The notes under the pieces are model-generated. The model did not search any database and was not told where the DNA came from. It saw only the letters and a list, made by a program, of their open reading frames with translations. Shown piece after piece: positions 1-45,024 of a DNA stretch of 64,000 nucleotides. Every line of letters starts with the position of its first letter. The first letter of the stretch is position 1. The stretch covers positions 5,146,001 to 5,210,000 of the forward strand of contig OZ024753.1 in NCBI GenBank assembly GCA_964016885.1, written 5' to 3'. This DNA comes from Eledone cirrhosa. Taxonomy: Eukaryota. A program made the translations under genes and the position numbers.

Positions 1-148
1 TACTGCAGCTTCCTTCCACTGGGATTTCCTGGCATTTCTTCACCCAGTGATCATACATTATATATATATATATATATATAAACATATGTATGTATATATG
101 TATATCTAAACATATATATATATACATACATTCAAAAGAAATCATCAG

Positions 149-200
149 GGCTTTCCTGATGATGTCTTTCGAATGAAACAGTTCTCATCCTGTAGAAGCC
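149..200 (+). ncRNA. Type I hammerhead ribozyme motif (family A), preceded by a truncated inverted copy
   Basis: ggctttc-CTGATGA-tgtctttcgaat-GAAA-cag ttctcatc ctg-TA-gaagcc. Stem I ggc(t)ttc/gaagcc, stem III ACAG/CTGT, GUA cleavage triplet; stem II is weak. 129-149 is an inverted copy of 155-175. Confidence 0.65.
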
Positions 201-254
201 GTCTCTGTCTCTCTCTATATATATTAGAATTGGTGCTCTGAAATAGCGATATAT

Positions 255-34429: not shown

Positions 34430-34547
34430 ATATCCTGGGTTCAATCGGGGGTAACCACAGTAAGTAAGGTACTCAATACATAGTAGAGTATAAATATTCA
34501 ATATAGAAATGGCTTATACAGGACTAGAACTGTTTCATTCGAAGGAG
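34430..34547 (-). mobile_element. Family A hammerhead-bearing element, truncated within the ribozyme
   Basis: tatcctgggttcaatcgggggtaaccacagtaag...caggactagaactgtttcattcgaa is shared with the 42620 and 44585 copies; only the GAAA/stem III half is retained. Confidence 0.75.
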
Positions 34548-35334
34548 AAGGTGGTGATTAGGATGGGTGGAGGTCATTGACCAAGGGATTTTAAGAAGAA
34601 TGATCTTTGAAAAAAATATATTTAAAGAACTATACACAGTACATATATATATGTACACAGTACATATATATATATGTACATATATATATATGTACATATA
34701 TATATATGTACATATATACATATATACACATATATATACATATATACATATATACATATATACCCAGTACATATATCTTGTACTGTGTATATATAGAATT
34801 TGTTGCTTAAACTTGTAATCTGTTATATATATATATATTAGTATATATAAATAAATAACCCTAACCCAAAACTTCATAAAGGAAAAATGGTTTCTAGTAG
34901 TATGTTTCATCGGTAATATATATATTGTCTGATGAAGTTACAAATGAATTTGATAGGAAATGGGTGAGTTGCCCAAATATAAATCTGATGTTGCATACAA
35001 ATTCTAACATTTCGTTTAGTCAACAAAGTAATTTCGATGTTGACATACGACACTTCATCTTAGTAGACTTTATTTTTAAAGTTACTTTTTTTAATATTTC
35101 TGTAAAAAGAATTTTTATGTATGTATATATATAAGGATAGAACCAGTTTAAAACTGGTTAGACCATTACTCAATAGAGTACTCGATACTTGGTATATAAA
35201 GTATGGCTATATTATAAAGAGTTGGGGACCCAATGGCTGAGTTCTTGCTGTTTCAACAGCTAGTTCTGGAAATATCTGTTGAAATGGCAAGAGCTAAGTT
35301 AATGGATTTATATATATATATTATATATTATATA

Positions 35335-41495: not shown

Positions 41496-42699
41496 AGTGG
41501 AGGTGCTTTCTCTTTTGACAAGTGTGTTGTGTATGTGAGTGTGTGTGTGTGGTTAGTGCCAAAATTGGTGGAATGGAGAGGGCTAGTCATGAGGAAGTGA
41601 CGACCAAATATAAAACTTTGTCTGGAGTAGTACTGTTTAGAGAACCATCATAGTTTAGAAGTGAGGGAAAAGAGGATTTAGTGACATAATATAATTTGCA
41701 GGCATATCTTGAGCTAATAAAAGGCCCAGGTCAGATGTGAAATCTAAGTCCCATTTCAAACTGCTCATTAAGTATTTTAATAAATAAATGAATAAATGTG
41801 TTAAGTACATGTGGTTTATGTATGTATTAGGGGTATATACATGTACATATAGTGCACACGATATGCTTAATGTGGGGCTAGGGTGCCGAAACTGCGGAGG
41901 AGGTTTTGCCAGAAGCAAGAGACCAGTGACGTCACATCAGGATTCGCGGGCCTGTCATTTCCTCTTTTGTCAGGATGTGGTCCCATGTGGTCATGGTATG
42001 ATTGTGTGTGAGAGACTCTCTATATGTTTTTGGCTGGACATAAGATGGGTGAACATCCGTGCAGGACATTCAATCCAGATTCAAGTGGAGACGCAAGTTA
42101 TGTCCATTCACTTCCTCACTACACTTATTAATAACTGTTTCTATTTCAGGCACAAGGCCAGCAATTTGAAGGGAAGGGGAAAGTCGATTATTGACCCCAT
42201 AAGGATGAAAGGCAAAGCAAATCTCAGCAGGATTTGAACTCAGAACATAGAGGGCCATAACTCTAAGCTGCAAAGCATGGTGTCCGATGCTCTAACGATA
42301 CTGTCAATCCACCGCCCTAAACTACACTTCCTAATAACAAAACTAGAACCTAACATGAGTAGACCTATCTCAAAATCCTAGGCCCAAACCAATTTCCCCA
42401 TTTGCACCTATTCCCTTCTAACCTTATAATATGCAGAATAACAGTTTTTTTTTTTTTTAAAGCATGACATATTTACTAGAATAATATATTTTATTTTAAT
42501 ACAGATGCCTTGAAGTATTTTTTTCAAATTTAATTTGTCTACATATCACCCTCCCCATATATATATGTATATATACACACACATATGTATATATATGTAT
42601 ATGTGTGTGTGTGTGAGTCCCAAATTCAATTGGGGGTAACCACAGTAAGTAAGGTACGCAATACATTATTAGAGTATATACAAATTTTAATATAGAAAT

Positions 42700-42751
42700 G
42701 GCTTCTACAGAACTAGAACTGTTTCAATCGAATGAAATCATCAGGAAAGCC
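42700..42751 (-). ncRNA. Type I hammerhead ribozyme (family A, best-preserved copy)
   Basis: ggctttc-CTGATGA-tttcattcgatt-GAAA-cag ttCTAGtt ctg-TA-gaagcc on the minus strand. Confidence 0.72.
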
Positions 42752-42752
42752 C

Positions 42753-42795
42753 CTGATGATTTCATTCGAATGAAACAGTTCTAGTTCTGTAGAAG
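42753..42795 (+). ncRNA. Inverted twin hammerhead (family A) lacking the 5' strand of stem I
   Basis: CTGATGA-tttcattcgaat-GAAA-cagttctagttctg-TA-gaag. The arms 42687-42745 and 42752-42810 are inverted repeats. Confidence 0.6.
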
Positions 42796-42808
42796 TTATT
42801 TCTATATT

Positions 42809-42848
<40 letters not shown>

Positions 42849-43054
42849 CGGCGTGTATGAGGGTGGGAATATCATTTTTTTTCCAAATGATTTTACAAGT
42901 AATTGGTATTAAAAAAAAAAGGAAAGAAAAAAAATGTTTTTCTGTGCTAGAAATTTTAATGCTGGCACATTTTTATTTATTTATTTTAGCTAATTTGAGA
43001 AATAATTATAACATCTACTAATGAAATAAAATTAGTAATAAATAGCAAGCTACA

Positions 43055-43360
43055 TATTAATCGATAGAGAGAAAAAAATATCCCAAACTCTGGTAACTTG
43101 AACAAGTAATGTTATCGACCAATGAGAGAGCTAGGATTTATGACGTTATAGCATTCTGCTAACTTTTCCTCCACAGAAATAAAGTTCCATTTACAAAGTC
43201 GACGACAAGTTTTTATACGGAATCAAACGTCAAGAGAACCGACATTAAAATTGTAGACGACTTTTTTAAAAAAAGGGAAAAGGAAAAAGGAAAACACATA
43301 TATATCTATCTATAGATATAGATATATATACACACACGTAATGTTAATACATCGCCATAT
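43055..43360. promoter_or_regulatory. CpG-retaining promoter-like segment
   Basis: Non-repetitive, with many CpGs in a CpG-poor window. AATCGATA (~43059), CCAAT (43119), TGACGT (43141), CGCCAT (~43353). Confidence 0.45.
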
Positions 43361-43402
43361 ATTTAATTTTTGACAGATACACATAATACCGAATATATAT
43401 AT

Positions 43403-43456
<54 letters not shown>

Positions 43457-44029
43457 ACATAAAGTGGTGGTGGGGGAGAAAAGAGATGAATTTGTGTTGA
43501 AGGCGCTAAAGAGATGAAGGCTTTGTTTAGTAGTGGAAGCTGTAGAAGAGGAGAGAGGTGTAGTTGCAGAGTTCCGTTATGTTAGTGCCAACAACATGGC
43601 TAAACGTTCCTACCAACTGCTGCCACAACTGTTGCAGTGGGAACTGTTAGAAAGTTGATGGAAGATGGATGGTAACACATCAGATCATAGCCTACCATCC
43701 AGTGATCATACTGGAGGTACTTGGATCCAATCTTGGGAAAAGGATATTCATTCAGTTTCGAGATTGAACTTGGGTAAGGAAGAACTTTCTTTTTCTCTCT
43801 CTCCCTCCCGCTCCTTCACTATCGCTCTCTCTCTTCCACCCTCCCTCTCCCCCACTCTCTCTCTCTCTCTTCCACCCTCCCTCTCTTCCGCTCTCTCTCT
43901 TTCTCGCCCCCCCCCCCCCCCGCCTCCTGTCCTCCATTCTCTCTCTCTCTCATCTTTCCTTTATCTCTTTCTATTTCTGTTTCACCCTCCAGCCCTGCCA
44001 CTCCTTCTCTCTCACCCTCTCTCTCTATT

Positions 44030-44458
44030 TTTTCACGCCATTTTGCGACTCTTTCCAAATTATTTATTACATCAAAGTTGACCGAACTTTTTAAAAAATG
44101 TATTAATCGTTTCCATTAAACCAACTTGTCCTCTACAACCCGTGTTTAATCTATAAATATTTCCCTCTCTAAACACCTACATCTAAATAATATAACCTCA
44201 AGTAATATTGACTGTCAATAAAATTATACTTACCAATATTTTCAATAATCCTACAACACATTTATTTGCTCTATTTCTTTACCTCATTTTAAAATTAAAC
44301 GTCAATTAAGTAATTAATCTATTTTAGGGGATGGGGGATAGTTCCTAGTTTAATATATTTTATTTATTTTATTTTCAATCAAACAAATTTAAACTGTTTA
44401 TTCTTCAAGCAAAATATATTTGGAAAATTAGAAATAAAAAAAAATGACTGAGGCAAGT
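44030..44458 (+). promoter_or_regulatory. Candidate transcription start / first exon of a plus-strand gene
   Basis: A pyrimidine tract is followed by the YY1-type motif CGCCATTTTG (44036-44045) and aaaaATGACTGAG/GCAAGT (ATG at 44444, GC-type donor). G/T-skewed intron-like sequence follows. Confidence 0.4.
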
Positions 44459-44649
44459 TTGAAAGACCAGTTTTATAAAGATTCCTGTTTGTTTTAGTGT
44501 TGTAAATATATTTTGTTTTATGTGTAGTGTTTGTGTTTTTCCAATGTGGTTATGTTTACAAATAACTATATATATGTGTGTGTGTATCCCGGGTTCAACC
44601 GGGAGTAACCACAGTAAGGTACTCAATACATAGTAGAGTATATACAATA

Positions 44650-44697
44650 TTCCTGATGATTTCTTTCGAATTAAACAGTTCTAGTCCTGTAGAAGCC
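44650..44697 (+). ncRNA. Family A hammerhead, inverted relative to its element end (44585-44720), GAAA mutated
   Basis: ttc-CTGATGA-tttctttcgaat-TAAA-cagttctagtcctg-TA-gaagcc. Confidence 0.55.
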
Positions 44698-44849
44698 ATT
44701 TCTATATTAAATATTGTATATATATATATTTATATATTTATATATATATATATATATATATCCGTATGTAGGTTGACGGCTGAAGGAAAAAGAGAACTCA
44801 ATACCGAAGTAGAGTATAAATCTTCACTTTATTAAAGCTAAATAGTGAG

Positions 44850-44899
44850 TCTTGTTAGTCTGGAGTTTCGCCAGTTTATCACAGGGTCATCAGACAAGA
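44850..44899 (-). ncRNA. Degenerate type I hammerhead (distinct family)
   Basis: tcttgt-CTGATGA-ccctgtgataaactggc-GAAA-ctccagac-TA-acaaga. 6-bp stem I; stems II and III are decayed; AATAAA lies downstream on the same strand. Confidence 0.55.
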
Positions 44900-45024
44900 A
44901 CTAATGAATCAAAACATATCAAATATGTTAGAATTTTGAGCTACACTCTCCGGGTATGAAATAGCGCTATAAGGTTTCTCTTATTGTTTCACCCGTGTAC
45001 ATATTCTTCTACAGAATATGTATT

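What the first reader, a model, noticed from the sequence alone, without database searches (positions are those of the whole stretch)
42620..44720. Short mobile ribozyme family (A): four copies, all truncated or inverted at the hammerhead
Seen: copies at 129-210, 34430-34547, 42620-42810 and 44585-44720 share the same hammerhead. The last three also share the terminus ggtaaccacagtaag...gtactcaatacat next to TA/TG repeats. Two copies fold back head-to-head just 5' of CTGATGA with the same gggctttcc spacer, one has the ribozyme segment flipped, and one is cut inside stem II. No ORF is attached. Inference: an abundant non-autonomous Penelope-derived or retrozyme-like element of under 200 bp, whose reverse transcription ends or switches template at the ribozyme. 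It may be undescribed.
Basis: partly seen in the sequence, partly recalled or inferred. Interest (0 to 1): 0.75.

Follow-up and report, generated by a model that had tools for sequence, protein, structure and literature searches.

The report
Penelope stubs stopping at transcript start
These four short repeats belong to a family of tens of thousands of back-to-back end pieces of a Penelope-type jumping gene, a layout already known; they stop at the front edge of a ribozyme motif rather than at its cut site, likely because the RNA begins there, and the two halves were likely copied from two fixed start points.

Summary
The four copies are real members of one hammerhead-bearing repeat family (about 20 loci in 1.18 Mb of evenly spaced sample, so roughly 50,000 genome-wide). 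They show the known Penelope-like (PLE) insertion layout in miniature: two head-to-head arms, a tail on one arm only (46 of 48), ends beside dinucleotide repeats. Three first-reader points fail. The 'spacer' is the 5' strand of helix I. The copy 'cut in stem II' is a longer copy with an internal deletion. The family is not under 200 bp: an ORF-less 527-bp long form exists. The breakpoint hotspot is real (61 of 70 arms start within 18 nt) but is not the cleavage site (95 of 100 arms run through it). It lies 30 nt after a TATA box here; in a second family the hotspot is also about 30 nt after a TATA-like box but inside loop II. It likely marks the transcription start (inferred, no RNA data). Junction geometry favours priming from two fixed sites over one-way snap-back. 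Not a tandem retrozyme; no autonomous partner found. The scan reached similar readings on other DNA of this genome.

The parts
42613..42751 (-). Copy 3, tail-bearing arm, family positions +1..+139
   Evidence: 94% to family majority
42700..42751 (-). Type I hammerhead motif: helix I (+1..+7 with +47..+52), core CUGAUGA, short helix II with U.U at its base, GAAA, helix III, predicted cleavage after GUA (between 42706 and 42705); activity untested
   Evidence: sequence
42613..42674 (-). Tail (+78..+139), beginning with the ACTCTAC...GTATTGAGT motif shared with families B and C
42752..42822 (+). Copy 3, inverted tailless arm, +7..+77, ending in (TA)n
   Evidence: 92%
44587..44651 (-). Copy 4, tail arm truncated at +65 (+65..+134)
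44650..44722 (+). Copy 4, inverted arm +5..+77 (GAAA box mutated); with the tail arm it gives twin-priming-like geometry
149..206 (+). Copy 1, tailless arm +1..+58 spanning the hammerhead motif
129..148 (-). Copy 1, short inverted arm, about +8..+27
34433..34546 (-). Copy 2, +17..+134 (3' half of hammerhead plus tail)
34547..34641 (-). Copy 2, upstream family sequence -145..-45, joined to +17 by an internal deletion that removed the TATA box and the 5' half of the hammerhead

Best explanation
The copies are short head-to-head end pieces of a Penelope-type retroelement whose 5' ends cluster at the first base of hammerhead helix I, likely the transcription start, and whose two arms were likely made by priming both sides of a target break at two fixed sites on one RNA. 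Shown: layout, breakpoint clusters (5' at +1..+9; 3' at +62-69, +77 and +134/+139), one-sided tail, microsatellite-rich flanks, an ORF-less 527-bp long form with TATAAA at -30 and CCAAT at -85. Inferred: a promoter in the long form makes an RNA starting near +1; a PLE RT/GIY-YIG protein supplied in trans cuts (TA)n or (CA)n; one end primes at the tail end, the other near +77; both cDNAs run toward the RNA 5' end and are joined through 0-2 nt of microhomology. The hammerhead is inferred to be uncleaved in these templates and not to set the ends. Odds by step: PLE-type insertion 0.9, 5' edge = transcription start 0.7, two primers 0.6.
For: 70 position-ordered loci: 61 of 70 anchor arms start in -9..+9, the other 9 run to -84..-295; 48 of 70 are head-to-head; tail on exactly one arm in 46 of 48. 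In those 46 the arm reaching further 5' is the tailless one in 26, the tailed one in 16, equal in 4; one-way snap-back predicts tailed only. Five loci (and window copy 4) have the tail arm stopping at +55..+91, near where the other arm begins; 4 of the 5 have no overlap between arms. Both arms share the loop II variant in 16 of 24 pairs against 6.6 shuffled. 95 of the first 100 of 8,270 matches run through the cleavage site, at most 2 start at it (read by eye). Family C: 33 of 39 arms start 24-49 nt after a TATTTAAA box, inside loop II. TATAAA in a 5-nt window occurs at 0.7% of random places. 84 of 123 3' ends abut dinucleotide runs against 13% at random. In vitro, a Poseidon protein nicks and extends both strands, starts at two internal sites that bound the tail, and does not need hammerhead cleavage (PMC11167929).
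Against: No RNA evidence for the start site; the TATA reading was made after seeing the hotspot and rests on two families. About 4 of 27 long copies carry TACAAA instead. The one mapped Penelope promoter (D. virilis) is internal and TATA-less (PMC2377424). An AG lies just upstream of the hotspot in both families and could be a splice acceptor. Later flipping of the spacer between inverted arms could mimic the symmetry in overlapping cases. Arm-to-arm divergence at +29..+62 (12.2%) hardly differs from between-locus divergence (13.0%) (some rows misaligned). An extra G at -1, expected from a cap, is only suggestive: 3-G junctions 17 of 26, but G at -1 in only 3 of 15 unbiased other ends. No autonomous partner was linked. 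The 70 loci were anchored on an exact 20-mer at +9..+28, so later starts cannot be anchors.
Confidence: 0.62

Rival explanations
1. One primer at the tail end; the cDNA reaches the RNA 5' end, snaps back (CC on GG) and copies itself to an AT-rich site; the spacer is later flipped between the inverted arms in about half of the copies.
For: Junctions have short palindromes or microhomology; both arms share loop II variants; self-priming was proposed for PLE palindromic junctions (PMC3846280).
Against: Tailless arm is the more complete one in 26 of 46; four loci have non-overlapping arms that cannot arise by snap-back or flipping without a further deletion; inner ends pile up at +77 (21 of 118 ends) beside a motif conserved across families.
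Confidence: 0.17
2. The 5' hotspot is an RNA-processing or stalling point (3' splice site or RT pause) in a longer transcript rather than a transcription start.
For: AG at -4/-3 is kept in both family A subtypes and lies at the family C hotspot; in D. virilis the intron ends at the 5' end of helix I (PMC4209133).
Against: No shared first exon is seen upstream of short copies (100 rows); most starts are at +1 or later, not -2; no stable hairpin is predicted upstream (-80..+10 folds at -3.0 kcal/mol); TATA-like boxes sit at -30 in two families.
Confidence: 0.14
3. A non-LTR retrozyme: unit defined by hammerhead cleavage, amplified through circular RNA.
For: Type I hammerhead, no ORF, high copy number; retrozymes are reported to derive from PLE pLTRs (bioRxiv 10.64898/2026.07.22.740005).
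Against: 0 head-to-tail units among 263 cores in held loci; arms do not start at the cleavage site; direct pairs are separate insertions split by microsatellite.
Confidence: 0.03
4. Ordinary randomly 5'-truncated 3' stubs of an autonomous PLE.
For: 9 of 70 arms extend upstream with scattered ends; autonomous PLEs are abundant.
Against: Stop rate is about 20-fold higher in -9..+9; the long form ends sharply at -388 against microsatellite with no ORF.
Confidence: 0.04

Closest known systems
EN+ Penelope-like element insertions with inverted pLTR and one-sided tail (PMC3846280; PMC8557442 fig. 2; PMC2377424)
   Same: Head-to-head inverted arm at the 5' end, palindromic junction, tail on one end only, hammerhead in the terminal repeat, (TA)n targets.
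   Different: Whole insertion usually under 250 bp; tail about 62 nt rather than 30-40; sharp 5' hotspot; no ORF-linked parent found; TATA-type rather than internal promoter (inferred).
Poseidon_Ac internal RT initiation in vitro (PMC11167929)
   Same: Two internal start sites bounding the tail; both strands nicked and extended; uncleaved hammerhead in the template; AT-rich targets.
   Different: That work does not derive the inverted arm from dual priming in the text read; no ORF follows the hammerhead here; protein clade unknown.
Minimal hammerheads of metazoan PLEs (PMC4209133)
   Same: Type I topology, palindromic letters in loop III, dispersed single motifs, opposite-strand pairs noted in Schistosoma.
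   Different: Helix III is 4 bp with an 8-nt loop; helix II is 3 bp with U.U at the base (a U.U base is reported for an axolotl motif, PMC7229834).
Metazoan non-LTR retrozymes (PMC7229834; bioRxiv 10.64898/2026.07.22.740005)
   Same: ORF-less, type I hammerhead, PLE-related.
   Different: No tandem units; ends not set by cleavage.
L1 twin priming (recalled from the literature, not read here)
   Same: 5' inversion with small overlap or gap where one arm stops near the start of the other.
   Different: Inner start is largely fixed (+77, +62-69), and most tail arms also run on to the RNA 5' end.

Membership tests
EN+ Penelope-like element (insertion type) | Inverted 5' arm, head-to-head | tested here: met
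   48 of 70 loci
EN+ Penelope-like element (insertion type) | Tail on one end only | tested here: met
   46 of 48; length about 62 nt, longer than the 30-40 described
EN+ Penelope-like element (insertion type) | Type I hammerhead in the terminal repeat | tested here: met
   Core intact in 84 of 138 arms, helices I-III pair in 76-99% of arms; no Rfam match; alignment fold gave no consensus structure and no clear compensatory change
EN+ Penelope-like element (insertion type) | AT-rich or microsatellite target | tested here: met
   84 of 123 ends against 13% random
Autonomous PLE | RT plus GIY-YIG ORF joined to this pLTR | tested here: not met
   No ORF in long form; 0 of 50 tails run into shared non-repeat sequence (blind to continuations starting with A); 20 RT loci and 15 EN ends carry other termini; search not exhaustive
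Non-LTR retrozyme | Head-to-tail tandem units each with a hammerhead | tested here: not met
   0 among 263 cores in held loci; not a genome-wide scan
Non-LTR retrozyme | Unit boundary at the cleavage site | tested here: not met
   At most 2 of 100 arms start there
Non-LTR retrozyme | Circular RNA, self-cleavage | not testable with these tools
   Needs RNA work
Hydra, Neptune or other PLE clade | Protein motifs (RWK, DKT, CxCX5C and others) | tested here: inconclusive
   Hydra-type ORFs and a second ORF type occur in the genome but none is joined to family A
Catalogued repeat family | Match in Repbase, Dfam or published library | not testable with these tools
   Three short motifs had 0 hits in the one supplement file held for PMC8557442; other libraries not available

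The most novel reading that the evidence does not exclude
A 527-bp ORF-less solo pLTR acts as a Pol II 'mini-SINE' of Penelope-like elements, and its roughly 50,000 short insertions record the start of the capped RNA and both RT start sites. They would be genomic proof that the PLE inverted pLTR and one-sided tail arise by twin priming of both ends of a break on one uncleaved RNA, not by self-priming on an antisense template.
Probability: 0.4. Interest if true: 0.65.

Novelty: new member of a known kind. Interest (0 to 1): 0.42.

Why it matters
How PLEs make their inverted terminal repeat and one-sided tail is stated to be unresolved (PMC8557442, PMC3846280, PMC11167929). These short, very numerous insertions give countable junctions that separate the models, and they predict a promoter, a start site and two priming sites that the existing in vitro system could test. 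The element itself is an ordinary kind of repeat.

Tried and rejected
Rfam scan: no hammerhead family match, only microsatellite-driven miRNA and tRNA hits. Single-strand folds of copies were no more stable than shuffles (z 0.13 to -1.3); RNAalifold in a script on 138 arms returned no structure. Sequencing runs: no RNA holder listed, so no reads were laid. Partner search: a decayed RT abutting the long form in L135 led to two autonomous families with different pLTRs; a family-A-like copy 1.5 kb after a Hydra-type ORF in L055 is separated from it by other insertions; flanks of the 150 GIY-YIG matches were not examined, which leaves the partner open. Arm-versus-arm divergence at +29..+62 was nearly uninformative. 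Extra-G test for a cap was inconclusive. Literature: 'twin priming' plus 'Penelope' gave 3 papers, none on this by title or abstract start; hammerhead/octopus/retrozyme, Penelope/hammerhead/inverted/pLTR, promoter and octopus searches listed no paper on this family; the library lacks most subscription papers. A scan look-up by sequence found nothing. Dropped: one microsatellite-only hit (L199) from the sample count; row 67 was not fetched.

Full report
Numbering: +1 is the first G of GGCTTTCC; positions follow a majority reference built in a script. The window is G000:C13:5146001-5210000 in a 3.0-Gb animal genome. I took it for a cephalopod from the recalled look of its SINEs; this was not tested.

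Observation. The four places are homologous. Copy 3 is a tail-bearing arm +1..+139 (42751-42613, minus) joined head-to-head to a tailless arm +7..+77 (42752-42822). Copy 1 is +1..+58 (149-206) with a 20-nt inverted arm. Copy 4 is a tail arm +65..+134 joined to an inverted arm +5..+77. Copy 2 is +17..+134 continuing upstream into -145..-45, an internal deletion. The hammerhead is type I: helix I +1..+7 with +47..+52, core CUGAUGA at +8, three-pair helix II with U.U at its base, GAAA, four-pair helix III, predicted cut after GUA at +46. The core is intact in 84 of 138 arms and helix positions pair in 76-99% of arms, except the U.U. Loop II is the most variable part beyond +8. Against: no Rfam match, weak folds, no consensus fold and no clear compensatory change. 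Activity is untested.

Abundance and full length. 118 evenly spaced 10-kb stretches (1.18 Mb) held 21 clusters, 20 after dropping one microsatellite hit, some of divergent subtypes. That scales to roughly 50,000 loci. None of the 20 extended upstream of +1. Exact 20-mer patterns gave 1,532 and 8,270 matches. Walking upstream gave a long form of 527 bp that ends sharply at -388 against microsatellite in nearly all of 30 loci and has no ORF or similarity to the PLE proteins tested. That sharp boundary is unexplained.

Breakpoints. I fetched 70 of the first 71 position-ordered matches (all on C1; anchored on +9..+28, so biased to one subtype and blind to later starts; L271 and L272 may be one duplicated locus). 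61 of 70 arms start in -9..+9; 9 run to -84..-295: about 11% against 0.5% stops per nt. 48 of 70 are head-to-head, with many different junctions, so each was made anew. The tail is on exactly one arm in 46 of 48. The 3' ends peak at +77 (21), +134 (23), +139 (11) and +62..+69 (19) of 118. 84 of 123 ends abut dinucleotide runs against 13% at random.

The ribozyme does not set the end. Of the first 100 matches anchored at +47..+66, 95 run on through the cleavage site and at most 2 start at it (by eye). No head-to-tail unit was seen among 263 cores. The long form has TATAAA at -30 and CCAAT at -85; about 4 of 27 long copies read TACAAA. A second family (C), found through a shared tail motif, has the same layout. 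Its hammerhead has the U3-A8 core and a long loop II, and 33 of 39 arms start 24-49 nt after a TATTTAAA box, inside that loop. The hotspot thus sits at a different place in the ribozyme in the two families but at the same distance from a TATA-like box. I infer a transcription start (0.7). The reading is post hoc and rests on two families; an AG just upstream in both could be part of an initiator (consensus recalled) or a splice acceptor, as in D. virilis, whose intron ends at helix I and whose promoter is TATA-less. The extra-G test for a cap was inconclusive.

How the two arms arise. If one cDNA from the tail snapped back, the tail arm would always reach furthest 5'. It does in 16 of 46; the tailless arm does in 26; 4 are equal. 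Five loci and window copy 4 have the tail arm stopping at +55..+91, near the start of the other arm, four of them without overlap. Both arms share the loop II variant in 16 of 24 pairs against 6.6 in shuffles (the set may hold a locus twice), which fits one template or one subfamily but does not separate the models. I infer priming of both target ends at two fixed sites (0.6). This matches the in vitro behaviour of Poseidon_Ac. Later flipping of the spacer could explain the overlapping cases, so snap-back stays open. The shared motif begins right at the inner end in family A and about 6 nt after it in family C, in line with an earlier scan note on hairpins marking start sites.

Partner. PLE RT and GIY-YIG sequences are abundant, including ORFs of 1,000-1,240 aa and Hydra-type ORFs with RWR, DKT/DKA and CxCX5C. 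None examined is joined to family A. The search was partial.

Known context. Inverted arm, palindromic junction and one-sided tail are described PLE features. What I saw of each paper: PMC11167929 parts 1-2 of 4 (main text); PMC4209133 parts 1-2 of 4; PMC3846280 passages and Discussion; PMC8557442 passages, the Hydra section and a supplement search (one file); PMC2377424 and PMC7229834 passages; PMC13282606 parts 1-2 of 3 (its Zenodo library unseen); bioRxiv 10.64898/2026.07.22.740005 parts 1-3 of 5 (supplements closed). L1 twin priming is recalled, not read. Unseen supplements and repeat libraries may already hold this family. Earlier scan notes on other DNA of this genome reached similar readings; I had stated mine before opening them, and they are not independent support.

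Verdict. A real, abundant, ORF-less Penelope-type family showing a known layout; new member of a known kind. Its value is the countable junction set bearing on an open mechanism. Interest 0.42.

Noticed in passing
window 44756-44960 (minus; core at 44893): A second hammerhead-bearing element (family B) directly beside copy 4, sharing the ACTCTAC...GTATTGAGT tail motif and ending in (TA)n.
   Followed up: partly
window about 265-560: A pair of long inverted arms between (TA)n runs; the centre (about 385-445, minus) reads as a hammerhead with a U3-A8 core and a palindromic loop III (by eye).
   Followed up: no
L076:660-1042, L197:3361-5316, L250:5381-5791 and many short copies: Family C: more abundant than A (34 clusters in 1.18 Mb), U3-A8 hammerhead with a TATA-like box in loop II, some near-identical young copies; long form at least 1 kb.
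   Followed up: partly
L182:283-1213: Four hammerhead units at 310-bp spacing, a retrozyme-like tandem array.
   Followed up: no
L250:7318-9947, L055:5502-7952, L060:937-3336: Hydra-type PLE ORFs (frameshifted or with stops), L055 and L060 with a 1.2-kb 3' UTR.
   Followed up: partly
L170:3286-7005, L173:3707-6712: Two young PLE families with 1,000-1,240 aa ORFs, Asn/Thr-rich stretches and their own hammerhead pLTRs.
   Followed up: partly
L110-L139, family position -388: The long form of family A has a sharp upstream boundary against microsatellite that, read on the other strand, looks like a PLE 3' end; unexplained.
   Followed up: partly
L135 / L189:5741-5887: A decayed PLE RT lies antisense and abuts the first 147 bp of the long form; probably a nested insertion plus deletion.
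   Followed up: partly
L046, L055:3884-3945, L067:8643-8700: A sister subtype of family A with changed helix I letters that still pair.
   Followed up: no
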